Shown piece by piece: positions 14,770-64,000 of a stretch of DNA of 64,000 nucleotides; the first letter of the stretch is position 1; each line of letters starts with the position of its first letter. The DNA comes from a bacterium (GTDB lineage Bacteria > SZUA-182 > DTGQ01 > JAFGSM01). Made by a program: the position numbers and the translations under genes. Location: positions 9,562 to 73,561 of the forward strand of contig JBLIRN010000013.1 in NCBI GenBank assembly GCA_049472315.1. The letters are read 5' to 3'. Under the pieces are notes generated by a model. The model worked only from the letters and a program-made list of their open reading frames with translations. It did not search any database and was not told the origin of the DNA.

Positions 14770-15033
14770 ATGGCACAACAAAAATCAGCGAAAAAGGCTA
14801 TACGGCAGACGAAGCGCAAAACAATAGTCAATCGGAAGAAAAAGGGCATCTTGAAATCACACATCAAGAAGGTGCTTCTTTCCGTTGCGGAAAAGGATGC
14901 CGAGAAGGCAGCGTATGCCCTTAACGAGGCAGTATCGGTCATAGACAAGATGGCTGCAACAGGACTCATCCATAAGAACAATGCAGCACGCAAAAAATCC
15001 CGTTTGGCAAAACGGATTTCCTTGTTAGCATAA
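14770..15033 (+). CDS. rpsT: 30S ribosomal protein S20
   Basis: MAQQKSAKKAIRQTKRK...: a basic protein of about 87 aa. Confidence 0.9.
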   Translation: MAQQKSAKKAIRQTKRKTIVNRKKKGILKSHIKKVLLSVAEKDAEKAAYALNEAVSVIDKMAATGLIHKNNAARKKSRLAKRISLLA

Positions 15034-15896
15034 CATACATGCATTCTTTTCGGCTTTGCTTGCATGGCCGCTTTCCTTATCATCACACCATATGTCTCCA
15101 TGGTAATGCAGAAGGACCATGGAATAGAAATGCGGAAGTATAAAAGTATAACAGGCAGCGGCGAAATGTCAAAGACATCCTTTGTCATCGTGTAAACTGC
15201 CTTATATTCAAATATATCTGTTCAATTGTTGCAATCATCAAAAGATGATATCTCCACCACACAATAATTGAGAGGAATTAAACGTCAGCTTCTCCTCACA
15301 ACACCCGACGAAATGTGTTGACAGAATTTTCCGTGTTATCTCTATCCATGTGAGGGCATCCATGTATCAATAGCAGTCAGGGGTCCGGAAAAATATGCCT
15401 TTTCAAGCCAGATGGTTTTTCCCCTGCATGCGGTTGATAAAATTAGGGGCAATGTTATTTCAGAAATCCCGGTTCAAAAATTCAATGTATGGCCGTTGAC
15501 ATTTTTTTATTAAAAATAGTGATGCATATTAAAAATTACTTGAACCGTAAAGAACAGCGACAATTGACCGTCTTATGAAGTTGAATATATCTATTTGTAT
15601 AAATTACTTTGGCTATCATTATGTCATCGATTATACAGACCCCGACGTTTTTTAATGGATTTTTGGGTAACTCAAAAAAATCGGGTATGATTAAAAAATC
15701 CAGGAGAAAAACGTTGGTTAAAAGGGGGTGATCACGGAATTATATTAAACGGCAGGGGATTGACTCAACCGGTTTGTATGATACGCCTCATTATGATTAT
15801 TCAGTTGCATGGGGAGTATGGTGATTCATTTCCCCTTTTTTTATTATCTTAACATGCTACGTCAAGCGAAAAGATGCAGCGAAGGAGGTACTTTTT

Positions 15897-16475
15897 ATGG
15901 ACACCAGGTTAACGAGATTGTTAGGGGTGTGCGTGGTTATTTGTTTGATCGTTGGTCTGGCCCTCGTATCGGCTCCCAGGGTAGAGGCCTATTACGGCGG
16001 GTACGGCGGCTACAGCAGCCTTTTGGGCGGCTATGGCGGGTACGGCGGCCTTTTGGGCGGCTATGGCGGGTACGGCGGCCTTCTGGGCGGTCTGTATGGC
16101 GGCTACGGCGGCCTTCTGGGCGGCTATGGCGGGTACGGCGGCCTTCTGGGCGGTCTGTATGGCGGCTACGGCGGCCTTCTGGGCGGCTATGGCGGCCTTA
16201 TGGGCGGCTACGGCGGTCTGTATGGCGGCAGCAGCCTTTACAGCCCCTTCGGCTATCAGAACCTTTACTATCCGGTTGAGACCACGGGCGGTCTGACCTA
16301 TCAGGTTCCCTTCTTGCAGATTGCCCCGTTGCTGGGTGTGGCTGGCCTTTACAATCAGCTTTTCCCGGGTCTGTTTAATCCGCAGCCCCAGCTTCCGCCG
16401 ATTGTTAACGTGAGCACCCCGTCGACATTAGGTGTAACATTCCCAACCCCCATTGGGACATTTCCAATCAGCTGA
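15897..16475 (+). CDS. Secreted glycine/tyrosine-rich repeat protein: signal peptide, about 12 GGYGGYGGLL(G) repeats, and a Pro/Thr/Gln-rich tail
   Basis: GAAGGAGG Shine-Dalgarno sequence, a signal peptide (LLGVCVVICLIVGLALVSAPRVEA), a perfect repeat structure, and a strong terminator directly downstream. Confidence 0.75.
   Translation: MDTRLTRLLGVCVVICLIVGLALVSAPRVEAYYGGYGGYSSLLGGYGGYGGLLGGYGGYGGLLGGLYGGYGGLLGGYGGYGGLLGGLYGGYGGLLGGYGGLMGGYGGLYGGSSLYSPFGYQNLYYPVETTGGLTYQVPFLQIAPLLGVAGLYNQLFPGLFNPQPQLPPIVNVSTPSTLGVTFPTPIGTFPIS
15985..16245 (+). repeat. Tandem 33-bp (and 45-bp variant) DNA repeats encoding the GGYGGYGGLLG units
   Basis: Near-identical ggcggctatggcgggtacggcggcctt(t/c)tgggc units read directly. 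Confidence 0.7.
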
Positions 16476-16497
16476 TGATACGGTAGATAGAAAACCA

Positions 16498-16533
16498 GGG
16501 CGCAGGTATTCCAATCCTGCGCCCTTTTTTTAT
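16498..16533 (+). terminator. Rho-independent terminator (gggcgcagg-tattccaat-cctgcgccc plus T7)
   Basis: Perfect 9-bp GC stem with a T-tract, 22 nt after the stop. Confidence 0.7.
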
Positions 16534-16858
16534 GGTGCGCCCGGCAGGGCGCAACTGTTAAACTGATCCTGCGTAATGTCACGGGCATCTATTGTCTTTT
16601 TTTGATGTGCCCGGCAGGGAGAACAATCCCGATCCTGTGCACACATACTGTGCGTCATTCGTAATCAGCGTATACCGTACCTTCGGCACGGTAATGAATC
16701 GCACATGATTCGATTGCCTTCCGCCCGTATTGACATTGCCGAGGCCAGCACGTAATCTACTACTATAATCCCCGGAAATGGTATAATTGCGCGGCGATAT
16801 GGGGAGGCATCAATACGCGCCGTGTCCATTGGTCATGACAGCTCCGGAGAGGCCCGTT

Positions 16859-17338
16859 ATGGAGAAAAGGTTCCTGGCGGATGTCATGCTCGGCCGTTTG
16901 GCACGCTGGCTCAGGATACTCGGATATGACACCCTGTATACGCGGAAGCGTATCGACAGCCTGCTCGAGGTGCGTGCATATGACGAGGGACGTATCATCC
17001 TCACCCGCGACTCCCGTCTTTATAGAAAGCTGGGGCCGGAGCGAAGCTTTTTCATCCACGCCGATGATTTCAGGGACCAGATGGAGGAATTGATTCGTTC
17101 CCTGGACATGCACCACGATCCCGACCGTTTTCTGTCCCGGTGCCTCGACTGCAACCATCCCCTGGTTCCCATTGCGAAGGAGGATGTCCGGATGGTGGTC
17201 CCGCCCTTTGTATTTCAGACAGTGGAGGCGTTTCGAACATGCCCCCAATGCAAGAAGGTATTCTGGCCCGGTACCCACATCGGGGAGATGGAACGGCTCA
17301 TAACAACCCTTTTTGAACGGAAAGGAACAGAGGAATGA
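16859..17338 (+). CDS. Mut7-C RNase-domain (DUF82) protein
   Basis: FLADVMLGRLARWLRILGYD... and a C-terminal CPQC zinc ribbon, typical of the Mut7-C/DUF82 PIN-like family. Confidence 0.6.
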   Translation: MEKRFLADVMLGRLARWLRILGYDTLYTRKRIDSLLEVRAYDEGRIILTRDSRLYRKLGPERSFFIHADDFRDQMEELIRSLDMHHDPDRFLSRCLDCNHPLVPIAKEDVRMVVPPFVFQTVEAFRTCPQCKKVFWPGTHIGEMERLITTLFERKGTEE

Positions 17339-18903
17339 AGGTCGTCACCGGTGAGCAAATGAGGGCACTTGATCAGAAGGCCATCAAGGGGCTTGGCATT
17401 CCTGGGGTTATCCTGATGGAGCATGCGGGAAGGGGCGTGGTGGAGGAGATGGCATGCCGGTGGGAGCCCCTTGATGCGCAGAGGATCGCGATCTGCTGCG
17501 GGGCAGGGAATAACGGCGGGGACGGCCTTGTGGTGGCACGGCATCTCATGAACCGGGGATTGCGGCCCGAGGTGTTTCTCTTCGCCGAAATGGGCAAGGT
17601 GCGCGGCGATGCCCGGATCAATCTGGACGTGCTCCTGAATATGGGCGGGAGGATATATGTGGTGTCCGATCAGGACAGCCTGGAGGTCCACGGGGAGATC
17701 CTCAAGGGGTGCGACATCATCGTGGACGCAATCTTCGGGACCGGCCTCAAACCGCCTGTGCAGGGATTCTTGGCGGAGGTCATTCGGTTCATCAACGAAC
17801 TGCACAAACAGGTGGTGGCGGTGGACATCCCCTCGGGGCTGGGCGCGGATTCGCCGCTGGTTGAAGGGCCGTGCATCGATGCGGATCTCACGGTCACCTT
17901 TGCCCTGCCCAAGGTGTCCCACCTCCTGCCTCCTGCAATGGGTCATGTGGGCACCCTCGCGGTGGCGGATATCGGCATTCCTCCCTTTCTGGTTGATGAG
18001 GCGGCATGCGCAATGACCGCCCTGGACCGGCCGTTTCTGACGCCGCTGGTACGCAGGCGTTCTCCCGATTCGCACAAGGGTACCTATGGCCATTGCCTCA
18101 TCATCGCCGGCTCCGAGGGAAAGACCGGGGCCGCGTATCTTGCCGCCCAGGGCGCATTGAGAATCGGCGCAGGCCTGGTGAGCCTCGCCCTTCCCCGGAG
18201 TCTCAACGACATCATGGAGGTGAAGCTCACCGAGGCGATGACCATACCGCTCCCTGAAACCGCCGGGCGAGCCATAGCCCCGGAGGCATGGGACGCGCTT
18301 TCCCCGCATATCTCAAAATTCAGCGCCATTGTCGTCGGCCCCGGACTCTCCCAGCACCCCGGAACCGGCGAGTTCGTTCGCACATTGGTGAGCGAGGCTG
18401 CGGCTCCCCTGGTCATCGATGCGGACGCGCTCAATCTCATCGCAGGCGGGCTGGACCTGGTTAAGCACTCGGGACATGCCCCCATTTTGACCCCGCATCC
18501 CGGTGAGATGGCCCGGCTGATCGGGAGCACCGTGCCTGCGGTGCTCGAGGGAAGGCCTGAAATTGTTCGAAAAGAGGCGGAGCGAAGCGGATGTCACCTG
18601 CTTCTAAAGGGATATCAGAGCCTCATGGCCACCCCCGAGGGCGAGATGTTTGTGAATACCACCGGGAATCCCGGCATGGCCTCCGGCGGTACCGGGGACG
18701 TGCTCTCCGGCATGATAGGGGGGCTGCTTGCCCAAGGGTATGAAAAGAGGGATGCGATGCTCCTCGGTGTCTATCTCCACGGTCTTGCCGGGGATATCGC
18801 GGCGGCGGTCAAGGGGGAGGAGGCCCTCATTGCCACCGATCTTCTCGATGCCATCCCTGAGGCCTACGAGTCCCTCAAGGAGTCCCCGGATGAGATGGGA
18901 TGA
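17335..18903 (+). CDS. nnr: Bifunctional NAD(P)H-hydrate repair enzyme Nnr (epimerase plus ADP-dependent dehydratase, YjeF family)
   Basis: YjeF_N domain (CGAGNNGGDG) fused to a carbohydrate-kinase-like C-terminal domain. 522 aa. Confidence 0.85.
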   Translation: MKVVTGEQMRALDQKAIKGLGIPGVILMEHAGRGVVEEMACRWEPLDAQRIAICCGAGNNGGDGLVVARHLMNRGLRPEVFLFAEMGKVRGDARINLDVLLNMGGRIYVVSDQDSLEVHGEILKGCDIIVDAIFGTGLKPPVQGFLAEVIRFINELHKQVVAVDIPSGLGADSPLVEGPCIDADLTVTFALPKVSHLLPPAMGHVGTLAVADIGIPPFLVDEAACAMTALDRPFLTPLVRRRSPDSHKGTYGHCLIIAGSEGKTGAAYLAAQGALRIGAGLVSLALPRSLNDIMEVKLTEAMTIPLPETAGRAIAPEAWDALSPHISKFSAIVVGPGLSQHPGTGEFVRTLVSEAAAPLVIDADALNLIAGGLDLVKHSGHAPILTPHPGEMARLIGSTVPAVLEGRPEIVRKEAERSGCHLLLKGYQSLMATPEGEMFVNTTGNPGMASGGTGDVLSGMIGGLLAQGYEKRDAMLLGVYLHGLAGDIAAAVKGEEALIATDLLDAIPEAYESLKESPDEMG

Positions 18904-19750
18904 TCCGCTCGGGATGGGAGTAGACAACAAACCGGTTTTCCTGAGCCCGCCCGACCAGGGTGAGCCCGATCATGCGGGCCAACATGACAGCCCGGTCCGT
19001 TGGGGCGGAGCGGGAGATCAGAAGGGGAACGCCCATCACTCCTGCCTTGACGAGCATCTCCGAGGAGATCCTTCCCGAGGTGACAATGATCCGGTCGGCA
19101 CAGGCCCTTTTTTCAAGGAGGCACTGGCCGTACAGCTTATCGATGGCATTGTGCCGTCCCAGGTCGAAGTGGAAGATCTCTATCTCATCGGGCCTGCACA
19201 GTGCGGCATTGTGGACACCATGGGTCATTTTGTAAAGTGTTGACCGCACGAACAACCCTTCCATCAGGCCGAACACCTGGGCAGGGGAAATCCCTTGTGA
19301 GGATGCAATCTTCACCAAGGCGAGCCGTTCCTCCCCTGTGGAAAACGTCACCCCCCTGCCAAGCCCGGGTGTGCGCGTGACCTCATCTTTACACGGTGCA
19401 TTGCTGCCGCAGGGTGCCTCGATGTCGATCCTTTCCGCGTCGATCCCAGTGATCCGGACACTCTCCATTTCATCCGGTTGAATGAATCCCTCCATCGCCA
19501 GGAAGCCGATTGCGAGATATTCCCTGCCGCTGTCGCTGCAGAGCAGGGTAACCACAGGCTTACCATTAAGCCTGATGCACAGGGAGGATTCCCTGACCAG
19601 CGGGGAGATTTTTTTTGTCGGTTCCCCGTTGTATTCGATGATCTCGACCTCGGATACCATCCCGTTGTGCGACGAAGGGATATCGGAGGAGAGGTGGTTC
19701 AGGTCATGGTGTGCAGGGTGCATATGCGTAAATCCCCTATTTATTGGCAC
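18875..19750 (-). CDS. fdhD: Formate dehydrogenase accessory sulfurtransferase FdhD
   Basis: C-terminal ...ISSEMLVKAGVMGVPLLISRSAPTDRAVMLARMIGLTLVGRA, typical of FdhD. The start is uncertain. Confidence 0.7.
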   Translation of the reverse strand: MPINRGFTHMHPAHHDLNHLSSDIPSSHNGMVSEVEIIEYNGEPTKKISPLVRESSLCIRLNGKPVVTLLCSDSGREYLAIGFLAMEGFIQPDEMESVRITGIDAERIDIEAPCGSNAPCKDEVTRTPGLGRGVTFSTGEERLALVKIASSQGISPAQVFGLMEGLFVRSTLYKMTHGVHNAALCRPDEIEIFHFDLGRHNAIDKLYGQCLLEKRACADRIIVTSGRISSEMLVKAGVMGVPLLISRSAPTDRAVMLARMIGLTLVGRAQENRFVVYSHPERIIPSHPGTP

Positions 19751-19889: not shown

Positions 19890-19986
19890 GGGAGTGGATG
19901 GGTCACTGGTGGGCTCCCTGGACTTCAAATCCAGTGGCAGGGCTTAATCCCTCTGCGGTGGGTTCGATTCCCACACGCTCCCGCCA
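19890..19986 (+). tRNA. selC: tRNA-Sec (selenocysteine tRNA, anticodon TCA)
   Basis: 97 nt. An anticodon stem-loop ggaCTTCAAAtcc identical to the E. coli selC anticodon arm. A long variable arm, a GGTTCGATTCC T-arm, a G discriminator, and a 3' CCA. Confidence 0.75.
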
Positions 19987-55109: not shown

Positions 55110-58100
55110 ATGAAAGGTTCAGGCATAAGTAACGTAAGCGATAAAGGAAGGCTTCATGTGATTATTGTTGTTCTCTTTATGCTGATGTTATTTGTGGCTT
55201 CCGGTTTCATAGAGTGTATCCCCATGATGTTTTTTGAACGGATGTCTCTGAAGAAAACCGCCATGGCAGAAATAATGGGTTTTATGGATAATAATCCCTT
55301 GTATTCTCCTCAAGAGACCGGGCTTAAGGATGGCAAGGATGACAAGGATGGCAAGGGTGGCAGGCATGATGATGAGGATCTTTCAGTTTCACCTACCAGT
55401 CATGATTTCGGAGACGTCCAGATAGGGACAAGAGGGTCAGTAACCATAACCTTGACGAATACGGGCGATGATAGAATCAGAGTAAAAAAAATACGAATAA
55501 AAAATAAAGAATTCAGCCATAATGCGGAGATCCCATTAAGTATCCCTCCCTTTGGCAGTGTCAGTTTTGAGGCAATGTTCACCCCCGCTGATGAAGGTAT
55601 AACAACAGGTATCTTGAAGATCACCAGTGATAAGCATCATGGTCATGACCTGGAAGTAATCCTGACCGGCACGGGAATCCCATCACCGGGTGCTCGATTA
55701 GATCCTTCTCTCTTACATTTTACCTTAGAGCCGTCTGATCCTCCTGCTGATCTTCAATCCATCCTTTCTAATATAGGCAAGGGTATTTTGTCCTACCAGA
55801 TAATCTCGGTCGAGGAGACAGGCAATCCTCTCGGTATTCTTTCCGAACAAAAAATAAGTCTCAAAAGCGGGGCAAAGACCGCTCCTGTAAACACCTCACT
55901 CATCTACAGTCAAGGCAGTTACAACAACAGCTTTGCCCCCGGGCGGATAATTGTGGGGCTAAAGGACGGCGCTGAATCATTTGCCGATGCCGACCTATTA
56001 AACAATATTGGAGCCGGTTCCATGCGGGAGCTGGCCACAGCCAGAAGGCCTTGGACCGGCTCGCGGTCATACTTCGGCAGGAAGTTGTTCCTGTTATCCA
56101 TGGATAATCAAACCGAACAGGGCGTCATCGATGCCATCGCTATACTCAAGGAAGATGCCAATGTGGCCTATGTGCAGCCGGACTTCAGGGTCAGCGCCAT
56201 AGGCGTCATACCGAATGACCCCGACTTCGGCTTACTCTATGCCATGCACAATGAAGGGCAGACCGGGGGGAGCCCGGATGCGGATATCGATGCACCCGAG
56301 GCATGGGATACGCACACAGGAACAGGAAATATTCTGGTCGGTGTTATTGACACGGGGATCGACTATACCCATCCGGACCTTGTGGACAATATCTGGACGA
56401 ATCCCGGCGAGATACCGGGTAACGGGATCGATGACGACGGCAACGGGTATGTTGACGATGTGTATGGCTGGGATTTCTGCAACGATGACAACGATCCGTG
56501 GGATGACCATGGTCACGGCACCCATTGTGCCGGAACAATAGCCGCGACAGGGAATAACGGCATAGGCGTGGTCGGCGTATCATGGAAGGCCGGGCTGGTC
56601 GCCCTGAAGTGTTTGGATTGGAGCGGATCGGGATGGACTTCGGATGCGGTTGATGCAGTGGCCTATGCCAACGCCATGGGGATTCCGGTCACCAGCAACA
56701 GCTGGGGTGGTGGCCCTTATGATCAGGCACTGAAGGACGTGATCGACGCTGCCGGCAGCCTTGGCTACCTGTTTGTTGCCGCGGCGGGAAACAGTGGGAT
56801 GAACAATGATGTGCTTCCCGATTATCCATCCGGTTATGATTGTGAAAACATCATAGCCGTTGCTGCCACGGACCATAATGACCAACTCGCCTCTTTTTCC
56901 AATTACGGTCCGATCACGGTGGATCTGGGCGCACCCGGGGTTGATATCTATAGCTGTCTGCCTTTAGAAGGCTATGCGTACAAATCGGGCACCTCCATGG
57001 CAGCGCCGCATGTCGCCGGTGCAGCGGCCCTGGTATGGAGCCACAATCCCGGTTTATCGGGTGCGCAGGTAAAGGCTGCAATACTGGAGGGTGTGGATGT
57101 CGTGCCCTCCCTTACGGGGATGGTCCTGAGTGAAGGAAGGCTCAATGTGAACCAGGCGCTCGAGAAGACAGGATTGCCCTGGCTTTGGGCCGCGCCCGTG
57201 GAGCCGGGCACATTGAATCCCGGTGCAGGACAACCGATCACGGTAACCGTCGATCCCGAGGGACTGGTTGCCGGGCAGTGGACCGGGCTGATTACCCTTT
57301 CGACCAATGATCCTGTAAATCCCACGCCGACCATCGAGGTCATAGCGGATATAAGCGGATGCCGGACCCTTTCGGTCTCACCCGATTTCCATGATTTCGG
57401 CGAGGTCTGGGTCGGTGGGGACTCATCGGTGACCATAACCTTGAAAAACGGCTGTAACGACAGGACCACGGTGAGTGCGATTACGACGGACAAAGGGGTG
57501 TTCGGCCACGATGCGGTTCTGCCTCTGGAGGTCCCGCCCTTCGGCAGTGTCAGCTTTGAGGCGACGTTCGCTCCCGTGGATGAAGGTCCGGCAAAAGGCA
57601 TCATGACGATCACCAGCGATGCGCAGGATAATCCTTTGCTTGAGGTGATCCTCTCCGGCACAGGTTTATTTCCTCCGGAGATCGAAATTGACCCGGAGAG
57701 TTTCTCGGAGGTCCTGGACCTTGGAGATCGCGTGACCAGGACACTGACGATTACGAACAGCGGCGGAGACGATCTGATATTTGATATTTCGATTGAAGGT
57801 GTGGAAGGTCTGAGTGTGAAGGTGGAGGATGTTGTTTCTTCTCAACCATCCAAGGCATTCATATCTTCTGATGTGAGGCCGGGATTTCGATACGAGAATA
57901 ACTCTACACCCGGATATCAGTATAACGTTAATGATCTGCACAACAGCAACCTTGGGATAAGGCTGGATCGCGTCATAAACGTCCTGGTCATGTCACCGGT
58001 GAGCGATTATGATTGGGTGGCTGAAAATTTTGGTGCCAATATGACGGATGTGACCTTTGAAACATACGACATAGGCTATGACGTACCGGATTTGGAATAT

Positions 58101-61100
58101 CTTCAAGCCTTTGATGTGGTCTTGATGTTTAGAAATTTTCCCGCTGAAAATTCTCCCGGAGTTGGTGATCGGCTGTACGAGTACGTGATGTCAGGCGGCA
58201 ATCTGGTGATGGGGAATTTCTATTGGATGGAGCGGGATTGGGGCATGGGGTGGGGTGCCTTGGAAACGATCGATCCGGTTTATGAAGGAGCCTGTGACGG
58301 CTCGTATGCCAAGTTGGATACGAAGAGCATCATCCCCCATCCTTTAACCACTGGACTCACCGAATTGGGCTGTATAGGGCGTGGCGGGCCTGTGACCGTG
58401 CGCGATGGTGCGACGGCTGTGGCCTGGTGGACGGACGGTGATCCCCTGCTCGTGTTTAACGAGCCGGCTGGTCGAATTACGGCTGTCACCGTATTTCCGG
58501 CAGCCCCTTTTTATGAACCGGTTGTGGGGGATTTCTACCTGCTGTGGGAAAATGCACTCAAGTGGACCGCCGAAGGAGGAAAGAGGTGGCTATCGGTGGA
58601 TCTATCATCGGGCAGAATACCGGCAGGCATGTCCCTGGCCATAGAGGTGAGCTTTGATGCCATGGATATGGTTGCAGATACGTATCTTGGCAACCTGAAC
58701 ATCAGCCACAATGCACTCAATGCGACCGATCCCCTATCCGTTCCCTGCACGATGGTTGTCAATGCAGTAAAACACCTCGATGTCTCACCTGCAGTACACG
58801 ACTTTGGAAAAGTCTGGACAGGGACAAACGGCTCCGTAACCCTGACCCTGACGAATTCGGGCAATGGTGCAACCACGGTACGAGGCATTGCAATAGACAA
58901 CCTGGCGTTCGGACACGATGCAGTTCTGCCCCTGGAGGTTCCGCCGTTTGGCAGTGCCGGCGTTGAGGCGACCTTTGCTCCTCTGGATGATGGTCCGGCA
59001 ACAGGTATCATGACGATCACCAGTGATGCAGCGGACAATCCTTCGCTTACGGTGACCCTTTCCGGCACAGGTGTTCTTCCTCCGGAGATCCGGGTTACTC
59101 CGGAGGGTTTCTCGGAGGTCCTTGATCCCGGGGATAGTGCCGTAAGGACGCTGACGATTACGAACATCGGCGGGGAGGATCTGGAATTTGGTATGAATAT
59201 TGAGATGCTGGGTGCGCCTGAAGCGTTGTCGGCGGATGCAGGGATAGTGAACATCCTTGTCTGGAACAAGTATTCGGATAACTCTCCAACCGGGGAATAT
59301 GTAAATACCCTGAATGCCATTGCAGCCTATTGTACGGATTTCACGGCTGAGCCCACTGATGTGACCGATCCTATTGCATTACAGGCATTATTGACGGGTA
59401 AGGAGGTCTTTTTGATTCCCGAGCAAGAGCGGGCCTTGCCTGACATTACGACGATCGGCGCGTCGTGGGCGCCGGTGCTTTCCGATTTTGTGTCCTCGGG
59501 CGGAACGGTGATTTTTTGCGGGGAGTTCTGGGCCAGTAATGGGTTCATCACGAGTACAGGACTAATGGAAGTGGCGTTAGTACGTACATCGATAAATGTC
59601 CCATTAACCGTAGTTGCCCCGGATCATCCATTGGCGGAGGATGTGCCGGGAAGCCTCAGGGGAGAGAATGCCACAGGATGGTATGATGTCAGGACACCGG
59701 ACGCGGACGTGGTTGTTGTGGAAAGTGCCTCATATTACCCTGTTGTTGCATCAAGGGGCCTTGGCTCGGGAAATGTGGTGTTATTGGGCTTCGATTATTA
59801 TTTATACAATAACGATATGGCACGCATCATTGCCAATGCCGTCCAGTTCGGCCCGACATGGCTCTCGGTCAAACCCGTATCAGGCATCGTTCCACCGGGA
59901 TTGTCGATAGAAATAGCCGTGAGCTTTGATGCCAGGGATATGGTGGCAGATACGTATCTCGCCAACCTGAACATCAGCCACAATGCACTCAATGCGCCCG
60001 ATCCCATATCCGTTCCCTGCATGATGGGTGTCAATGCAATGAAACTTCTCGATGTCACACCTGATAGCCATGATTTTGGAAACGTTTTTGTGGAAGAAAC
60101 CGAATCCGTAATCCTCACCCTGACGAATTCGGGCAATGATACGTGCACGGTAAGCGCCATTGAAATAGACAATCCGGTCTTCACCCACGATGCCATGATA
60201 CCCCTGGAGGTCCCGGCCTTTGGCAGTGTCAGCTTTGAGGCAACGTTCGCTCCTGAGGATAAAGGCCCGGCAACAGGCATCATGACGATCACCAGCGATG
60301 CGGATGATAATCCGTCAATTGAGGTGACCCTTTCCGGGACAGGTGTTTTCCCTGCGTTAATCGAAATTACCCCGGAGATACTCTCAGAGGTTTTGGATCT
60401 TGGAGATATTGTCACCAGGACACTCACTATTACAAATAGTGGTGGCATTGATCTGGAGTTTGCTATCAGTGGGCCCACCATAGAAAGTATGGCGGGCGTC
60501 GAGCCATACACGTATGATTCAAGCCATTATGAAAGGATTCCCAAAGGTTCGGAAGACCCGCGTATAGGGCAGATAGTTCCGTATGATATGGGTGGCCCGG
60601 ATGTCTTTGGATATAGATGGGTCGATTCCGACGAGCCGGGTGGCCCTGTGTTTGAATGGATTGATATCGTTGATCCGGCCAACTGGCTCTACATTTCGGA
60701 TGCTGATGATGATTATCAGGAACTGCCGCTCAGCTTCCCGTTCAGCTTTTACGGGGTTGAATATACCAGCATCTTTGTGGGGAGCAACGGGTATATAACC
60801 TTTGACCAGGGAAGCTACGAATGCTCTCATTCCCCGATTCCTTCACCTTACATGCCCGCCATGGTTGCAGGATTCTGGAGCGATCTTTATCCAGGGGTAT
60901 TGGGGGACATCTACTTTAAGGATCTTGGCGACAGGGCGATCGTTCAATTTGAAAATGTGATGCATATCAGCGGCATGGGCATATATACCTTTCAAATGGT
61001 GCTTCATGCTCATGGCACCATCAATCTCTATTATAAGGAGATGATGGGCGACGCATCCTTCTCAACCGTAGGTATCCAGGATGAATGGGGAGCTGACGGG

Positions 61101-64000
61101 CTCGGGATCGCCTATAACACACCCTATTTAAAGGATCTCCTGGCAATCCGCATTTCTTCCGGTCCTTCATGGCTCAGGGTTTCACCCGGATCAGGCATCG
61201 TCCCTCCCGACCGGAGCGCCAATGTGGATGTGACCTTTGATGCCACCGGTCTTGTGGCAGGGGTATATGAAATTACGATGGAGATAGGCCACAATGCCAT
61301 AAATGCCCCTGATCCCATGCCTGTCCCCTGCACGCTGGCGGTGAATAGCTTTAGAAGCCTCGATGTTTCCCCTGCCGGTCATGATTTCGGAGATGTATTT
61401 ATAGGGGCCAGCGATTCCGTGGCCATCACGTTGACGAACAAGGGTAATCACATAACCACAGTGAGTGCTATTATTCTGAATAATTCGGAGTTCAGCCATG
61501 ATGCAATGACTCCCCTGGAGATACCGCCCTTTGGCAGCGTCAGTTTTGATGCCTCGTTTACTCCTGAAGACGTAGGCCCGGAAACAGGCGTCGTGACGAT
61601 CACCAGTGATGCAAAGGATAATCCCATTCTTACGGTTACCCTTTCCGGTATGGGTTTGTTTCCTCCGGAGATCATGATCAGCCCGGATAGCTTCTCCGAG
61701 ATGTTGGATCTCGGGGGTCGTGTCACCAGGACACTGACCATCACCAACACGGGTGTCAGTGATCTTGAATTCGATATTGTCGGTGAAAGGGTGGATGCAC
61801 TCGATGATACGACAACTGACGGCCGGGAGATTGATCTGAATGATGCGATCAATGTATTGGTCCTTTCCACCTGCGATTATGACTGGGTAGCTGCAAATTT
61901 CGGCGCCAACATGACGGATATGGCATTTGAAACCATGGACATAAATCTTGATATTCCGGATTTGGAATATCTCCGATTATTTGATGTCGTTTTGCTCTTT
62001 CAATGCTGGACATCCGATGTCTCCCCCCAGGTGGGTGATGCATTGTATGATTATGTGACGTCCGGCGGCAATCTGGTCCTCGGGCTGGAATATTGGGCCA
62101 CCAGTGAGATAGGACTGGGGTGGGGTGCCCTTGCAACCATCGATCCACTCTATGGTGGAATGTCTGATTACACCTACGAAGAGCTGGATACGGAGAGCAT
62201 CGTACCGCATCCCTTGACCGCGGGGCTCACCGAATTGGGCTGTATTGCGCGCGGCGGGCCTGAGACCGTGCGTGAAGATGCAACAACAGTGGCATGGTGG
62301 ACGGACGGCGATCCCCTGATCACGTTTAACGAGCCGGGGGGAAGAATCACCGCCGTTACGGCGTTGCCTTCAGAGCCCCAGTATAACCCGGTTATGGGGG
62401 ATTTCTATCTGCTGTGGGAAAATGCGCTGAAATGGACGGCTGAGGGGGGAACACCTCAATGGCTCTCGGTAATACCGGAATCCGCGACCGTCATGCCCGG
62501 CGCATCCATAGCAATAGATGTCACCTTTGACGCCACGGATATGGTTGCAGGTACGTATCGTGCCAACCTGAACATCAACCACAATGCACTCAATGAGCCC
62601 AATCCCTTGCCTGTTCCCTGCTCAATGCTTGTCAACGGCGTAAAACGACTTGCGGTGTCACCTTCCAGCATTGATTTTGGCAATATGTTTGCGGGAGGAA
62701 TGAAGGTGGTAACCATGACCTTGACCAATGCCGGCAATGATACGACTATGGTGAGTGAGATCAGCACGGATAATCCGGTGTTCGGTGTTAAGGCAATTCT
62801 GCCCATGAAGGTCCCGCCCTTCGGCAGTACAACCTTTGATGCCCTATTCATACCCTTCGATCTGGGTACTGAAACAGGCACCATGGTGATCAGCAGCGAT
62901 GCAGAGGATAATCCGACACTCGTCGTTGATCTTGCCGGTACGGGCGTACCTCCTCCGGAGATCAGTGTTCACCCGGACGGCTTCTCCGAGAAATTGGATC
63001 CGGGATATGCGGTCACAAGGACGATGACCATAACGAACAGCGGCGGATATGATCTGGAGTTTGCCATCAGCGGACCCACCATAGCGGGTATGGCGGGCAT
63101 CGAGCCGTACCGGTATGATTCGACCCATTATGAAAGGATTCCCAAGGGTTCGGAAGACCCGCGTATAGGGCAGCCAGTCGTGTATGATAGCGGCGGCCCG
63201 GATGGCTTCGGATACACGTGGGTCGATTCCGACGAGCCGGGTGGCCCTGTGTTTGAATGGATAGATATCGCTGATCCGGCCAACCGGCTCTACATATCGG
63301 ACGCCGATGATGATTTTCAGGAGGTGCCGCTCAGCTTCCCGTTCAGCTTCTACGGGGTTGAATATACCAGCATTTTTGCAGGAAGCAACGGCTACATCAC
63401 CTTCGGCCTGGGCAGCTACGAATGCTCTCATTTCCCGATTCCGTATCCCTATATGCCCGCCATGGTAGCAGGATTCTGGAGCGATCTCTGCCCTGCGATG
63501 TCAGGAGACATCTACTTTAAGGATCTTGGCGACAGGGCGATCGTTCAATTTGAAAATGTGACGCATATCAGTGACATAGGGGTGTACACCTTTCAAATGG
63601 TGCTTTGTGCGGATGGGGCCATTCATCTCTATTATAAAGAGCTGATGGGCAACGCGGCCATGTCGGCCGTAGGAATCCAGGATGCATGGGGAGTTGACGG
63701 GCTCGGGATCGCCTATAATACCCCCTATCTAAAGGATTTCCTGGCAATCCGCATTGCCGCCGGTCCATCCTGGCTCAAGGTTTCACCCGGATCGGGCATC
63801 GTTCCTCCCGGCAAGAGCGTCGATGTGGATGTGACCTTTGATGCCACCGGCCTTATGGCGGAGGTATATGAACTCACCATGGAGATAGGCCACAATGCCA
63901 CAAATGCACCGAGTCCCCTACTTGTCCCCTGCGCATTGGGGGTGAATACGATGAGACGACTCGATGTCTCCCCTGCCGGTCATGATTTCGGCAATGTATG
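55110..64000 (+). CDS. Giant secreted S8 subtilase-family multidomain protein (more than 2960 aa, partial, running off the window). It carries an N-terminal signal anchor, an S8 pro-domain with D/H/S catalytic core, at least 8 ASH/choice-of-anchor-D-like Ig domains, and two pairs of duplicated about 200-aa modules.
   Basis: GAGGGAGG Shine-Dalgarno sequence and ATG at 55110. No stop codon for 8.9 kb. DTGID / HGHGTHCAG / GTSMAAPHVAG triad motifs. Repeated HDFG.V..G.S...T.TN.G......FEATFAP.D.GP..G.MTITSDA.DNP modules. Confidence 0.85.
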   Translation, partial: MKGSGISNVSDKGRLHVIIVVLFMLMLFVASGFIECIPMMFFERMSLKKTAMAEIMGFMDNNPLYSPQETGLKDGKDDKDGKGGRHDDEDLSVSPTSHDFGDVQIGTRGSVTITLTNTGDDRIRVKKIRIKNKEFSHNAEIPLSIPPFGSVSFEAMFTPADEGITTGILKITSDKHHGHDLEVILTGTGIPSPGARLDPSLLHFTLEPSDPPADLQSILSNIGKGILSYQIISVEETGNPLGILSEQKISLKSGAKTAPVNTSLIYSQGSYNNSFAPGRIIVGLKDGAESFADADLLNNIGAGSMRELATARRPWTGSRSYFGRKLFLLSMDNQTEQGVIDAIAILKEDANVAYVQPDFRVSAIGVIPNDPDFGLLYAMHNEGQTGGSPDADIDAPEAWDTHTGTGNILVGVIDTGIDYTHPDLVDNIWTNPGEIPGNGIDDDGNGYVDDVYGWDFCNDDNDPWDDHGHGTHCAGTIAATGNNGIGVVGVSWKAGLVALKCLDWSGSGWTSDAVDAVAYANAMGIPVTSNSWGGGPYDQALKDVIDAAGSLGYLFVAAAGNSGMNNDVLPDYPSGYDCENIIAVAATDHNDQLASFSNYGPITVDLGAPGVDIYSCLPLEGYAYKSGTSMAAPHVAGAAALVWSHNPGLSGAQVKAAILEGVDVVPSLTGMVLSEGRLNVNQALEKTGLPWLWAAPVEPGTLNPGAGQPITVTVDPEGLVAGQWTGLITLSTNDPVNPTPTIEVIADISGCRTLSVSPDFHDFGEVWVGGDSSVTITLKNGCNDRTTVSAITTDKGVFGHDAVLPLEVPPFGSVSFEATFAPVDEGPAKGIMTITSDAQDNPLLEVILSGTGLFPPEIEIDPESFSEVLDLGDRVTRTLTITNSGGDDLIFDISIEGVEGLSVKVEDVVSSQPSKAFISSDVRPGFRYENNSTPGYQYNVNDLHNSNLGIRLDRVINVLVMSPVSDYDWVAENFGANMTDVTFETYDIGYDVPDLEYLQAFDVVLMFRNFPAENSPGVGDRLYEYVMSGGNLVMGNFYWMERDWGMGWGALETIDPVYEGACDGSYAKLDTKSIIPHPLTTGLTELGCIGRGGPVTVRDGATAVAWWTDGDPLLVFNEPAGRITAVTVFPAAPFYEPVVGDFYLLWENALKWTAEGGKRWLSVDLSSGRIPAGMSLAIEVSFDAMDMVADTYLGNLNISHNALNATDPLSVPCTMVVNAVKHLDVSPAVHDFGKVWTGTNGSVTLTLTNSGNGATTVRGIAIDNLAFGHDAVLPLEVPPFGSAGVEATFAPLDDGPATGIMTITSDAADNPSLTVTLSGTGVLPPEIRVTPEGFSEVLDPGDSAVRTLTITNIGGEDLEFGMNIEMLGAPEALSADAGIVNILVWNKYSDNSPTGEYVNTLNAIAAYCTDFTAEPTDVTDPIALQALLTGKEVFLIPEQERALPDITTIGASWAPVLSDFVSSGGTVIFCGEFWASNGFITSTGLMEVALVRTSINVPLTVVAPDHPLAEDVPGSLRGENATGWYDVRTPDADVVVVESASYYPVVASRGLGSGNVVLLGFDYYLYNNDMARIIANAVQFGPTWLSVKPVSGIVPPGLSIEIAVSFDARDMVADTYLANLNISHNALNAPDPISVPCMMGVNAMKLLDVTPDSHDFGNVFVEETESVILTLTNSGNDTCTVSAIEIDNPVFTHDAMIPLEVPAFGSVSFEATFAPEDKGPATGIMTITSDADDNPSIEVTLSGTGVFPALIEITPEILSEVLDLGDIVTRTLTITNSGGIDLEFAISGPTIESMAGVEPYTYDSSHYERIPKGSEDPRIGQIVPYDMGGPDVFGYRWVDSDEPGGPVFEWIDIVDPANWLYISDADDDYQELPLSFPFSFYGVEYTSIFVGSNGYITFDQGSYECSHSPIPSPYMPAMVAGFWSDLYPGVLGDIYFKDLGDRAIVQFENVMHISGMGIYTFQMVLHAHGTINLYYKEMMGDASFSTVGIQDEWGADGLGIAYNTPYLKDLLAIRISSGPSWLRVSPGSGIVPPDRSANVDVTFDATGLVAGVYEITMEIGHNAINAPDPMPVPCTLAVNSFRSLDVSPAGHDFGDVFIGASDSVAITLTNKGNHITTVSAIILNNSEFSHDAMTPLEIPPFGSVSFDASFTPEDVGPETGVVTITSDAKDNPILTVTLSGMGLFPPEIMISPDSFSEMLDLGGRVTRTLTITNTGVSDLEFDIVGERVDALDDTTTDGREIDLNDAINVLVLSTCDYDWVAANFGANMTDMAFETMDINLDIPDLEYLRLFDVVLLFQCWTSDVSPQVGDALYDYVTSGGNLVLGLEYWATSEIGLGWGALATIDPLYGGMSDYTYEELDTESIVPHPLTAGLTELGCIARGGPETVREDATTVAWWTDGDPLITFNEPGGRITAVTALPSEPQYNPVMGDFYLLWENALKWTAEGGTPQWLSVIPESATVMPGASIAIDVTFDATDMVAGTYRANLNINHNALNEPNPLPVPCSMLVNGVKRLAVSPSSIDFGNMFAGGMKVVTMTLTNAGNDTTMVSEISTDNPVFGVKAILPMKVPPFGSTTFDALFIPFDLGTETGTMVISSDAEDNPTLVVDLAGTGVPPPEISVHPDGFSEKLDPGYAVTRTMTITNSGGYDLEFAISGPTIAGMAGIEPYRYDSTHYERIPKGSEDPRIGQPVVYDSGGPDGFGYTWVDSDEPGGPVFEWIDIADPANRLYISDADDDFQEVPLSFPFSFYGVEYTSIFAGSNGYITFGLGSYECSHFPIPYPYMPAMVAGFWSDLCPAMSGDIYFKDLGDRAIVQFENVTHISDIGVYTFQMVLCADGAIHLYYKELMGNAAMSAVGIQDAWGVDGLGIAYNTPYLKDFLAIRIAAGPSWLKVSPGSGIVPPGKSVDVDVTFDATGLMAEVYELTMEIGHNATNAPSPLLVPCALGVNTMRRLDVSPAGHDFGNV

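What the first reader, a model, noticed from the sequence alone, without database searches (positions are those of the whole stretch)
15040..16533. Secreted glycine/tyrosine-repeat protein, (GGYGGYGGLL)n, behind an 850-bp AT-rich leader region: a silk/GRP-like structural protein in a bacterium
After rpsT there are about 850 bp of about 35% GC non-coding DNA. A strong Shine-Dalgarno sequence and a signal-peptide ORF follow. The mature protein is about 12 near-perfect GGYGGYGGLLG(GLY) repeats, and its tail is rich in Pro, Gln, Thr, Phe and Tyr. A perfect intrinsic terminator comes next. GGY repeats are hallmarks of eukaryotic glycine-rich structural proteins such as plant GRPs, arthropod cuticle and silk-like proteins. 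In bacteria such a protein would be a candidate extracellular fibre, sheath or adhesive matrix component. Tyr could allow dityrosine crosslinking, or phase separation or amyloid formation. The large AT-rich upstream region suggests complex regulation or high expression.
Basis: partly seen in the sequence, partly recalled or inferred. Interest (0 to 1): 0.75.

Follow-up and report, generated by a model that had tools for sequence, protein, structure and literature searches.

The report
Charge-free glycine-tyrosine secreted structural protein
This is a real gene for an exported protein with almost no charged residues, made of glycine, tyrosine and leucine repeats plus a strongly conserved 48-residue core; it belongs to a previously undescribed family found only in a few uncultured anaerobic bacteria and most likely builds an insoluble material outside the cell membrane.

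Summary
An 863-bp, 37.8% GC gap follows rpsT. A GAAGGAGGT Shine-Dalgarno sequence precedes a 192-aa ORF (15897-16475), and a strong terminator lies at 16498-16531. The reading frame is proven by comparison with homologues.

The protein has four parts: a Sec-type signal peptide (VEA|YYG), about 84 aa of (L)YGGYGGLLGG repeats (about 7 units, not 12), a strongly conserved 48-aa core (SPFGxQNxYY..YQVPFLQIAPLLGxAGLYNxLFPxLFNP), and a conserved Pro/Thr tail. The mature 16-kDa chain has no Lys, Arg, His, Cys or Trp and only one Glu.

The family is new. It has no Pfam, NCBIfam or PDB match. It forms 21 clusters among 1.84 billion representative proteins and occurs in 10 of 185,579 species genomes, all labelled "MAG: bacterium", with up to 5 copies per genome.

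Some paralogues add an 8-stranded beta-barrel or a CxxCH domain after the core. Family genes often sit beside other secreted, charge-free proteins rich in Ser/Tyr/Gly or in Pro.

Nearly all members are monocistronic and have long AT-rich leaders. These leaders carry a Shine-Dalgarno-like element, usually with no start codon after it.

Best reading: an abundant self-associating structural subunit of the cell envelope or matrix. What the material is, and where it sits, remains untested.

The parts
14771..15033 (+). rpsT (ribosomal protein S20), the upstream neighbour. The order murJ(-)/rpsT(+)/family gene is conserved in orthologous loci.
   Evidence: ORF list. tblastn finds rpsT in the same position in L001, L002, L004 and L025. 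The murJ cluster is shared by 7 loci.
15034..15896 (+). 863-bp AT-rich leader and promoter region (37.8% GC). No known RNA family matches it, and no conserved small ORF lies in it.
   Evidence: for composition. Rfam gives nothing at gathering score, and only a chance-level hit (E=1) at the permissive threshold. The 40-42-aa ORF ending at 15731 is not kept in the orthologues. Gaps of 500-1000 bp, AT-rich, precede most family genes.
15541..15664 (+). Leader blocks conserved across orthologues with very different genome GC (about 15541-15581 and 15632-15664). They may be promoter or regulator sites; their class was not identified.
   Evidence: Five-way alignment A4. No sigma-54 match was found, and no convincing sigma-70 match.
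15722..15733 (+). Shine-Dalgarno-like element AAGGGGGTGATC with no start codon after it, 175 nt before the start codon. It is 12 nt complementary (allowing G-U pairs) to the canonical 3' tail of 16S rRNA. Proposed to bind ribosomes and stabilise the mRNA (STAB-SD-like).
   Evidence: Eleven invariant columns in the 5 orthologues. Runs of at least 9 nt occur in 21 of 23 family leaders, against 19 of 314 control upstream regions. In 16 of 21 leaders no start codon follows at a usable distance. The STAB-SD concept is described in PMC3997798.
15811..15842 (+). Hairpin in the leader followed by U7, about 55 nt before the start codon. It looks like a terminator and could act as an attenuator or a structural element.
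   Evidence: It is shared only with the close orthologue L001, and its z-score is only -1.3, so its significance is uncertain.
15881..15889 (+). The working Shine-Dalgarno sequence, GAAGGAGGT.
   Evidence: Most of the family genes examined have a GGAGG-type site 6-10 nt before the ATG.
15897..15989 (+). Sec-type signal peptide, residues 1-31 (MDTRLTRLLGVCVVICLIVGLALVSAPRVEA). Predicted cleavage is after VEA, which leaves YYG as the mature N-terminus.
   Evidence: Two Arg residues in the first 7, then a hydrophobic stretch, then an A/V-x-A site. A|YYG is nearly invariant across the family. AlphaFold2 models a confident helix at residues 3-23. No dedicated signal-peptide predictor was available.
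15990..16241 (+). Low-complexity repeat region, residues 32-115: (L)YGGYGGLLGG units built only from Gly, Tyr, Leu, Ser and Met.
   Evidence: TRF and unit count. Across paralogues the sequence and length vary while the composition is kept: GLYGG, GLMGG and GMYG units.
16242..16385 (+). The 48-aa core that defines the family, residues 116-163: SPFGYQNLYYPVETTGGLTYQVPFLQIAPLLGVAGLYNQLFPGLFNPQ.
   Evidence: Invariant or nearly invariant columns. A relaxed start-of-core motif occurs in 68 of the 75 hits, and a stricter mid-core motif in 65. Purifying selection is evident. The core finds only 21 clusters among 1.84 billion representatives.
16386..16475 (+). Conserved Pro/Thr tail, residues 164-192 (PQLPPIVNVSTPSTLGVTFPTPIGTFPIS), plus the stop codon. 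This is the 'type A' tail.
   Evidence: The tail consensus (L/A)PPIVNV(S/T)TPxxxxxTFPTP(I/V)GxxS(I/V)T is seen in about 40 homologues.
16498..16531 (+). Rho-independent terminator: GGGCGCAGG, a 9-nt loop, CCTGCGCCC, then U7.
   Evidence: Comparable terminators lie within about 110 nt after the stop codon, most within 13-50 nt, in 13-16 of the 22 family genes that could be checked.

Best explanation
The gene encodes one subunit of a protein-based structural material that the cell deposits outside its cytoplasmic membrane.

Shown by sequence and comparison:
- The gene is a single-gene transcription unit with a strong ribosome-binding site and a strong terminator.
- It has a long conserved leader. 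The leader carries a Shine-Dalgarno-like element with no start codon after it.
- The protein has a Sec-type signal peptide with a conserved cleavage context (A|YYG).
- The mature 16-kDa chain lacks Lys, Arg, His, Cys and Trp and has a single Glu.
- Its repeat region keeps its composition but not its sequence across the family, whereas the 48-aa core is under strong purifying selection.
- In paralogues the core is followed by a beta-barrel or by a domain with a CxxCH motif.
- Family genes sit next to other secreted, charge-free, low-complexity genes.

Inferred:
- After export, the uncharged Gly/Tyr/Leu region cannot stay soluble. It self-associates through contacts between aromatic and aliphatic side chains, as in Gly/Tyr-rich structural proteins and [G/S]Y[G/S] low-complexity domains.
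- The core is the specific assembly or docking module shared by all paralogues.
- Type A proteins, including this one, are the bulk subunits. Types B and C attach a ligand-binding barrel or a haem to the same material.
- The Shine-Dalgarno-like leader element binds ribosomes and stabilises the mRNA, which supports high expression.

Not determined: whether the material is a periplasmic layer, a coat on inclusions, a sheath or an extracellular matrix.
For: - Gene anatomy and reading frame.
- Signal peptide and invariant A|YYG.
- Composition: 32% Gly, 17% Leu, 14% Tyr. No Lys, Arg, His, Cys or Trp and one Glu in the window protein. Across about 40 type A homologues there is no Lys or Arg and only 0-2 Asp+Glu.
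- The core is conserved and confined to the lineage.
- Copy number: 26 loci in 10 genomes, 1-5 per genome, plus 38 metagenome loci.
- Neighbouring secreted charge-free proteins rich in Ser/Tyr/Gly/Pro, in Pro/Val/Ala/Thr, or in Gly/Leu/Tyr/Met.
- Expression signals: AT-rich gaps upstream; the Shine-Dalgarno-like element in 21 of 23 leaders against 6% of controls; terminators.
- Regulation in paralogues: sigma-54 -24/-12 sites in 9 of 23 paralogue leaders, where 0.04 per 600 nt is expected. A histidine kinase and a sigma-54 activator lie next to one paralogue group.
- Several paralogue groups sit beside cell-envelope genes: murJ; pyrG-kdsA-kdsD; LptD; heptosyltransferase; Wzy.
Against: - There is no direct evidence of expression, export, assembly or location.
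- AlphaFold2 gives no confident fold for the mature protein (pLDDT 48). Assembly through the core is therefore an inference.
- No dedicated secretion, nucleation or cross-linking gene is consistently linked.
- The window itself holds only this one low-complexity gene.
- The promoter of the window copy was not identified.
- The mRNA-stabilising role of the leader element rests on analogy with Bacillus. Neither the 16S 3' end nor an RNase J gene of this organism was examined.
Confidence: 0.55

Rival explanations
1. It coats a hydrophobic inclusion stored in the periplasm, such as elemental sulfur, in the way that sulfur globule proteins (SgpA-D) coat sulfur globules in purple sulfur bacteria. 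The charge-free protein would form a thin envelope around the globule. The haem and barrel paralogues would serve sulfur redox chemistry or binding.
For: Sgp proteins are Sec-exported, 11-13 kDa, 'extremely hydrophobic' and repetitive. They are likened to keratins and plant cell-wall proteins and occur in 1-6 copies per genome (PMC10386293). This family matches them in signal peptide, size (16 kDa), lack of charge and multiple copies. From my own recollection, not a tool result, the isolate name Zod_Metabat.896 suggests the sulfidic Zodletone spring and CSMAG_150 a cold-seep catalogue (names listed).
Against: The core finds nothing outside 21 unannotated clusters in a library built from public genomes. 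Sgp proteins therefore do not share it. No sulfur-oxidation genes were seen in the roughly 64 kb window or in the loci examined. The gene content points to an anaerobe. Neighbouring Pro-rich and Ser/Tyr-rich proteins of 250-390 aa are not a feature described for Sgp systems.
Confidence: 0.15
2. It is a secreted antimicrobial or signalling peptide of the glycine-rich type (bacteriocin or microcin-like).
For: It is small, glycine-rich, exported and present in several copies.
Against: It has no cationic residues at all. It has a classical Sec signal and not a double-glycine leader. No immunity, ABC-exporter or modification genes are consistently adjacent. The orthologues sit in stable housekeeping synteny. 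Fusion to a beta-barrel or a haem domain does not fit a toxin.
Confidence: 0.04
3. It is a membrane-anchored protein. The hydrophobic part of the core (PFLQIAPLLGVAGLYNQLFPGLF) would be a transmembrane or in-plane anchor that holds a flexible Gly/Tyr stalk at the inner or outer membrane.
For: AlphaFold2 weakly models a helix at residues 143-155. The segment has a GxxxG-like GVAG motif, and the protein lacks charge.
Against: My own Kyte-Doolittle estimate over this stretch averages only about 1.1, and the stretch contains Gln, Asn and Pro. If it crossed the inner membrane, the type C CxxCH domain and the type B barrel would end up in the cytoplasm. Covalent haem attachment does not occur there. 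The C-terminus shows no outer-membrane beta-barrel signature.
Confidence: 0.1
4. It is not a real protein: a chance ORF or the wrong reading frame across a GC-rich DNA repeat.
For: All three forward frames are partly open across the repeat in the window.
Against: Differences fall mainly at third codon positions and the alternative frames contain stops. Sixty-five to 68 of the 75 homologues keep the core. The signal peptide, Shine-Dalgarno sequence and terminator are conserved.
Confidence: 0.01

Closest known systems
Sulfur globule proteins SgpA/B/C/D of Allochromatium vinosum and other sulfur bacteria
   Same: They have a Sec signal peptide, are small (11-13 kDa), extremely hydrophobic and repetitive, play a structural role outside the cytoplasm, and occur in several copies per genome (PMC10386293).
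   Different: No shared sequence: the family core is absent outside this lineage. The host lineage is different, and no sulfur-oxidation context was seen. This family has a conserved core and cargo domains that are not described for Sgp proteins.
Plant glycine-rich and proline-rich cell-wall proteins, and keratin 'glycine loop' domains
   Same: A signal peptide followed by (GGY)/(GGX)-type repeats with regularly spaced aromatic residues. Gly-rich and Pro-rich secreted proteins occur together.
   Different: These are eukaryotic, with no homology (no Pfam hit). Many plant GRPs have charged or Cys-rich ends, whereas this family is essentially charge-free and has its own conserved core.
[G/S]Y[G/S] low-complexity domains (FUS type) and Gly-rich elastomers such as flagelliform silk (GPGGX) and abductin (GGFGGMGGG); named from my own knowledge
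   Same: Tyr, Phe or Met residues spaced by Gly in short periodic units. Such sequences self-associate into gels, condensates or elastic networks.
   Different: Those proteins are intracellular or of animal origin. The behaviour of this protein is untested. It is exported by Sec and contains Leu or Met where the others have Ser, Pro or Gln.
Bacterial surface-active or amyloid coat proteins (chaplins, curli CsgA, TasA, hydrophobin-like BslA)
   Same: Secreted, self-assembling, often present as several paralogues, and they build an insoluble extracellular layer.
   Different: No Pfam match to any of them. No nucleator or secretion partner genes are linked. The composition differs: Gly/Tyr repeats in place of imperfect beta-strand repeats.
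STAB-SD mRNA stabiliser of Bacillus thuringiensis cryIIIA (Agaisse and Lereclus 1996, cited in PMC3997798)
   Same: A strong Shine-Dalgarno-like sequence in a long 5' leader, without an associated start codon, upstream of a very highly expressed structural gene.
   Different: It is found here in a diderm lineage whose nearest named relatives, by SecA similarity, include Thermodesulfobacteriota and Nitrospinota. It lies 99-256 nt before the start codon. Its effect on mRNA stability, and the presence of a 5' exonuclease, were not tested.

Membership tests
Sulfur globule proteins (Sgp) | Sec-dependent signal peptide; small, extremely hydrophobic, repetitive mature protein | tested here: met
   Signal peptide with a conserved A|YYG site. 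Mature protein is 16.1 kDa with one charged side chain. Criteria taken from PMC10386293.
Sulfur globule proteins (Sgp) | Sequence homology to SgpA/B/C/D | tested here: not met
   The core profile finds only 21 unannotated clusters among 1.84 billion representatives drawn from public genomes. No Pfam or NCBIfam hit. A direct pairwise comparison with Sgp sequences was not possible because none was at hand.
Sulfur globule proteins (Sgp) | Host stores sulfur globules and carries sulfur-oxidation genes | not testable with these tools
   Only 64 kb of this genome and loci of about 1-20 kb (up to 10 kb on each side of the gene) from relatives were available. None of the proteins scanned was a sulfur-oxidation enzyme.
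Plant-type glycine-rich proteins / silk fibroins | Homology to GRP or spidroin terminal domains | tested here: not met
   Pfam scan at E up to 10 returned no family.
Plant-type glycine-rich proteins / silk fibroins | Signal peptide plus (GGX)n or GGY repeats | tested here: met
   This is a resemblance in composition only.
Bacterial functional amyloids (curli, chaplins, TasA, Fap) | Family domain plus linked nucleator or secretion genes | tested here: not met
   No Pfam hit. Clustering of neighbours over 57 loci that hold a complete family gene shows no such partner.
Glycine-rich bacteriocins / microcins | Double-glycine or other dedicated leader, linked exporter and immunity genes, usually a cationic peptide | tested here: not met
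   Classical Sec signal, no Lys or Arg, no linked exporter.
STAB-SD-type leader element | Shine-Dalgarno-like sequence complementary to the 16S 3' end inside the 5' leader, without a start codon | tested here: met
   AAGGGGGTGATC at 15722-15733. At least 9 nt of complementarity in 21 of 23 family leaders against 19 of 314 controls. No start codon follows in 16 of 21.
STAB-SD-type leader element | The element increases mRNA half-life by blocking 5' decay | not testable with these tools
   Needs measurements of RNA half-life. RNase J and the organism's own 16S 3' end were not examined.
Sigma-54-dependent gene | -24 GG / -12 GC promoter (TGGCAC-N5-TTGCW) | tested here: not met
   No match with 3 or fewer mismatches in the window leader or in its 4 orthologues. 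It is met in 9 of 23 paralogue leaders at 2 or fewer mismatches.
c-type cytochrome (type C paralogues only) | CxxCH haem-attachment motif and an axial ligand | tested here: inconclusive
   CxxCH and a second His are invariant in 10 type C tails, but no cytochrome family or structure matches. The window protein has no such motif.

The most novel reading that the evidence does not exclude
These bacteria build a multi-component, charge-free protein material outside the cytoplasmic membrane. Its parts would be the Gly/Tyr/Leu family, Ser/Tyr/Gly proteins and Pro-rich proteins. This would be a prokaryotic counterpart of plant cell-wall or cuticle protein networks, or of Tyr-driven hydrogels. Its conserved 48-aa core would be a new assembly module that also docks haem-carrying and ligand-binding subunits. 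The result would be a matrix that is redox-active or binds hydrophobic substances (for electron exchange, or for handling sulfur or hydrocarbons) in anoxic seep and spring communities.
Probability: 0.15. Interest if true: 0.85.

Novelty: new variant of a known kind. Interest (0 to 1): 0.58.

Why it matters
Secreted Gly/Tyr-rich structural proteins are well known in plants and animals. In bacteria they are barely known beyond the sulfur globule proteins.

This is a cleanly delimited new bacterial family with four notable properties:
- an almost complete absence of charged residues;
- a conserved assembly-type core;
- add-on beta-barrel and CxxCH domains;
- companion genes for other low-complexity secreted proteins.

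If the proteins do assemble, they define a new kind of envelope or matrix material in an uncultured deep-branching lineage. They would also offer a simple system for studying Tyr/Gly-driven self-assembly outside the cytoplasm.

The Shine-Dalgarno-like leader element, found across the family, is a separate lead. It suggests that ribosome-binding mRNA stabilisers may operate well outside the Firmicutes.

Tried and rejected
- **Family and structure searches.** Pfam, NCBIfam and PDB sequence searches of the protein, the core and both accessory tails gave nothing.
- **Structure prediction.** AlphaFold2 of the full protein gave pLDDT 48, so no fold search was attempted on it. The afdb50 fold library was unavailable.
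- **RNA families.** Rfam on the window and on the leader gave no riboswitch or sRNA.
- **Promoter.** The window leader shows no sigma-54 promoter. The sigma-70 scan was no better than shuffled sequence. By eye, the conserved leader blocks did not fit ECF or sigma-28 spacing. The promoter remains unidentified.
- **Small ORFs in the leader.** They are not conserved. Mini-ORFs after the Shine-Dalgarno-like element (for example Met-Glu-Phe-stop in L002, L025 and L029) occur in only a minority of leaders.
- **Leader hairpin plus U7 as a family-wide attenuator.** It is present only in the window and L001.
- **158-bp insertion in the leader (15372-15529, compared with L001).** It is unique and not a repeat element.
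- **Conserved operon partner.** None exists. Each paralogue group has its own synteny.
- **Exact-protein look-ups.** The look-ups for the window protein and its two same-genome paralogues found no record.
- **Literature.** Searches for the MAG accession prefixes and for bacterial Gly/Tyr-rich secreted proteins found nothing relevant.
- **Lineage.** Named SecA relatives share only about 60-62% identity and include Deltaproteobacteria, Thermodesulfobacteriota, Nitrospinota and NC10. The phylum therefore stays unresolved.
Full report
**1. The observation**

- rpsT ends at 15033. The next 863 bp (15034-15896) have 37.8% GC, against 54.5% for the whole window.
- GAAGGAGGT at 15881-15889 precedes the ATG at 15897. 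The ORF 15897-16475 encodes 192 aa.
- Tandem Repeats Finder reports 6.5 copies of a 30-nt unit (88% match), or 3.2 copies of a 63-nt unit (92% match), at 15996-16196.
- At protein level there are five full (L)YGGYGGLLGG units plus two or three partial ones, with 15 YGG triplets.
- The terminator is GGGCGCAGG, a 9-nt loop, CCTGCGCCC, then U7, at 16498-16531. It folds at -26.5 kcal/mol, and none of 200 shuffles folds as well. The simple scan missed it only because its loop limit is 8 nt.

**2. The reading frame**

- All three forward frames are partly open across the repeat in the window, so the frame had to be tested.
- In the 48 codons after the repeat, differences from ten homologues fall mainly at third positions. 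For L004 the counts are 5, 2 and 19 at positions 1, 2 and 3, with 5 amino-acid changes. For L006 they are 8, 2 and 22.
- The other two frames carry 1-14 stops within the coding sequences of the window gene and those homologues.

**3. Anatomy of the protein**

The protein has four parts.

- *Signal peptide, residues 1-31.* It has two Arg residues in the first seven, a hydrophobic stretch, and the site V-E-A. An A/S followed by YYG is nearly invariant in the family alignment. AlphaFold2 models only this helix with confidence.
- *Low-complexity repeat, residues 32-115.*
- *Core, residues 116-163.* SPFGYQNLYYPVETTGGLTYQVPFLQIAPLLGVAGLYNQLFPGLFNPQ is the best-conserved part of the family.
- *Pro/Thr tail, residues 164-192.* It is conserved in about 40 homologues.

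The mature chain has these properties.

- It is 161 aa and 16.1 kDa, with 32% Gly, 17% Leu, 14% Tyr and 8% Pro. It has no Lys, Arg, His, Cys, Trp or Asp, and a single Glu.
- The same holds across about 40 type A homologues: no Lys or Arg, and 0-2 acidic residues.
- AlphaFold2 gives no confident fold for the mature part (mean pLDDT 48). It only hints at a beta-hairpin followed by a helix in the core.

**4. The family**

- The word-indexed search found 75 proteins. One is the identical NCBI protein ACMUIS_04240 from a MAG labelled only "bacterium". Two paralogues, ACMUIS_10690 and ACMUIS_00955, come from the same MAG.
- Depending on the motif used, 65-68 of the 75 proteins keep the core.
- A profile of the core alone was scored against all 1.84 billion representative proteins. 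It found 21 clusters, one of them spurious, and none is annotated.
- Pfam, NCBIfam and PDB give nothing.
- Among 185,579 species-representative genomes the family occurs at 26 loci in 10 genomes, one to five per genome. Nine are titled "MAG: bacterium" and one "Pseudomonadota bacterium".
- The JGI metagenome scan added 38 loci.
- The window's SecA is 77-93% identical to proteins of the same unnamed clade. It is only about 60-62% identical to named Deltaproteobacteria/Thermodesulfobacteriota, Nitrospinota and NC10. The host is therefore a deep, unclassified lineage.
- LptD and KDO-pathway genes lie next to family genes on related contigs, which indicates a diderm envelope.

**5. Architectures**

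- *Repeat region.* It varies freely in length and sequence (GYGGLLG, GLYGG, GLMGG, GMYG, and even Ser/Tyr-rich) but keeps its uncharged Gly/Tyr/aliphatic make-up.
- *Type A tail.* The short Pro/Thr tail, as in the window gene.
- *Type C tail.* About 95 aa, with an invariant CxxCH and a conserved His. It matches no known cytochrome family.
- *What this implies.* c-type haem is attached only outside the cytoplasm. A haem domain after the core therefore argues that the whole chain, core included, is extracytoplasmic and that the core does not span the membrane.
- *Reading.* The repeat plus core looks like a common module onto which different cargo domains are added.

**6. Genomic context**

- No operon partner is conserved. 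Each paralogue group instead keeps its own chromosomal neighbourhood across genomes:
  - murJ/rpsT (the window type, seven loci);
  - pyrG-kdsA-kdsD, then the family gene, then a methyltransferase and a TPR protein (seven loci);
  - isochorismatase-LptD-folC (type B, five loci);
  - several others.
- Family genes are often flanked by other genes for secreted proteins that are also essentially free of charged residues but lack the core. Three kinds were seen:
  - Ser/Tyr/Gly/Pro-rich proteins of 290-390 aa (for example L012 7762-8742);
  - Pro/Val/Ala/Thr-rich proteins of about 250 aa (L012 11217-12023);
  - Gly/Leu/Tyr/Met proteins with Thr/Pro/Ala tails (L057, L064, L003 10714-11091).
- This pairing of glycine-rich and proline-rich secreted proteins is the strongest argument for a composite structural material. 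The window itself holds only the one family gene.

**7. Expression signals**

- Most family genes follow a 500-1000-bp AT-rich gap. Of the 22 checked, 13-16 are followed by a strong terminator within about 110 nt of the stop codon, most within 13-50 nt.
- In the five rpsT-linked orthologues, whose genomes range from 38% to 55% GC, several leader blocks are conserved. The sharpest is AAAGGGGGTGA(T).
  - In the window it is AAGGGGGTGATC at 15722-15733. That gives 12 contiguous nucleotides complementary to the canonical 16S 3' tail if G-U pairs are allowed.
  - A run of at least 9 nt of this kind lies 99-256 nt before the start codon in 21 of 23 family genes. It occurs in 19 of 314 other upstream regions in the same loci.
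  - In 16 of 21 cases no start codon follows at a usable distance. The rest have ORFs of 3-33 codons.
[quoted passage not shown] The function here is inferred, not shown.
- Nine of 23 paralogue leaders carry a sigma-54 -24/-12 motif with 2 or fewer mismatches, where 0.04 per 600 nt is expected. One paralogue group is followed by a histidine kinase and a sigma-54 activator.
- The window copy and its orthologues lack this motif, and their promoter remains unidentified.
- Rfam finds no known RNA in the leader.
- The hairpin plus U7 at 15811-15842 is shared only with L001 and is not statistically notable.

**8. Interpretation**

- *Best reading (confidence about 0.55).* This is an abundant, Sec-exported subunit that cannot remain soluble and self-associates through its Tyr/Leu/Gly region. 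The core is the specific assembly or docking module. Together with the companion low-complexity proteins it builds an insoluble layer or matrix in the periplasm or on the cell surface. The barrel and haem paralogues would add functions to that material.
- *Sgp-like coat on periplasmic inclusions (about 0.15).* This is the closest bacterial precedent in mode of action (PMC10386293). However, there is no sequence relationship, and no sulfur-oxidation context was seen.
- *Membrane anchor (about 0.1).* See section 5 for the argument against.
- *Bacteriocin (about 0.04).* Disfavoured by the total lack of cationic residues and of exporter or immunity genes.
- *Artefact (about 0.01).* Excluded.

**9. 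Novelty and limits**

- The kind of protein is known: a secreted Gly/Tyr-rich structural protein. The family is not. New features are its core, its near-zero charge, its cargo variants, its companion genes and its leader element.
- Everything about assembly, location and abundance is inference from sequence.
- The environments are known only from isolate names. Zodletone spring and cold seeps are my own reading of "Zod_" and "CSMAG".

Noticed in passing
window 55110-64000 (+), runs off the window end: A giant ORF of more than 2963 aa. It has a subtilase S8 domain (aa 407-660) and many ASH/HYDIN/CFA65-type Ig-like domains, a TMEM131-like domain and a BACON_2 domain. It is probably a very large secreted or surface protease-adhesin.
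   Followed up: partly
L012 7762-8742(-), L026 8035-8898(-), L044 3783-4958(-), L045 184-1194(-), L051 3823-4749(-): A second family of secreted, nearly charge-free proteins of 290-390 aa. They have SYGYSPYG-type repeats, then GLYGAG repeats, and a GLSSLSLLG(L)GII C-terminus. They lie next to type C family genes and have no Pfam hit.
   Followed up: partly
L012 11217-12023(-), L051 7192-7932(-), L050 2886-3626(-), L014 2611-3204(-), L053 1141-1734(-): A third kind of secreted charge-free protein, rich in Pro/Val/Ala/Thr/Ile, of about 200-270 aa. It ends in FPTPFLSP-type motifs, lies in the same clusters, and has no Pfam hit.
   Followed up: no
window 16525-16650 (+): The motif TGYGCCCGGCAGGG occurs twice, 70 nt apart (16536-16549 and 16606-16619). 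Each copy follows a T-run and is followed by GATCCTG. It occurs nowhere else in the window, where 0.04 matches are expected by chance. This is an imperfect direct repeat between the terminator and the Mut7-C RNase-like gene (16859-17338).
   Followed up: partly
window 15372-15529: A 158-bp insertion in the leader relative to the close orthologue L001. It is unique in all the sequence held and is not a repeat element.
   Followed up: yes
L002, L025 and L029 leaders (for example L029 166-190): In three leaders, the Shine-Dalgarno-like element is followed 5 nt later by a three-codon ORF, ATG-GAR-TTT-TGA (Met-Glu-Phe-stop). In the window the ATG is ACG. This may be an ancestral mini-ORF or a ribosome-loading site.
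   Followed up: partly
L006 3460-6357(-), L015 8682-11621(-), L024 2683-5310(+), L028 11032-13935(-), L010 11688-14195(+): Large proteins of 875-980 aa with a sulfatase domain and many TPR repeats recur within a few kb of family genes in several genomes. It is unclear whether they are linked to the family or are simply abundant paralogues.
   Followed up: no
window 19890-19982 (+) and 18875-19750 (-): A tRNA-Sec gene next to an FdhD-like ORF. Together with an EtfAB-ferredoxin fusion (29835-31472), an acyl-CoA dehydrogenase and Fe-S proteins, this fits an anaerobic lifestyle.
   Followed up: no
L007 10649-13659 and L003 11436-13598: One paralogue group of the family is followed directly by a PAS/GAF histidine kinase. 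In L007 a sigma-54 activator response regulator comes next. A sigma-54-like -24/-12 site lies in the paralogue's leader: 2 mismatches in L003, 3 in L007. This is a likely dedicated regulatory pair.
   Followed up: partly
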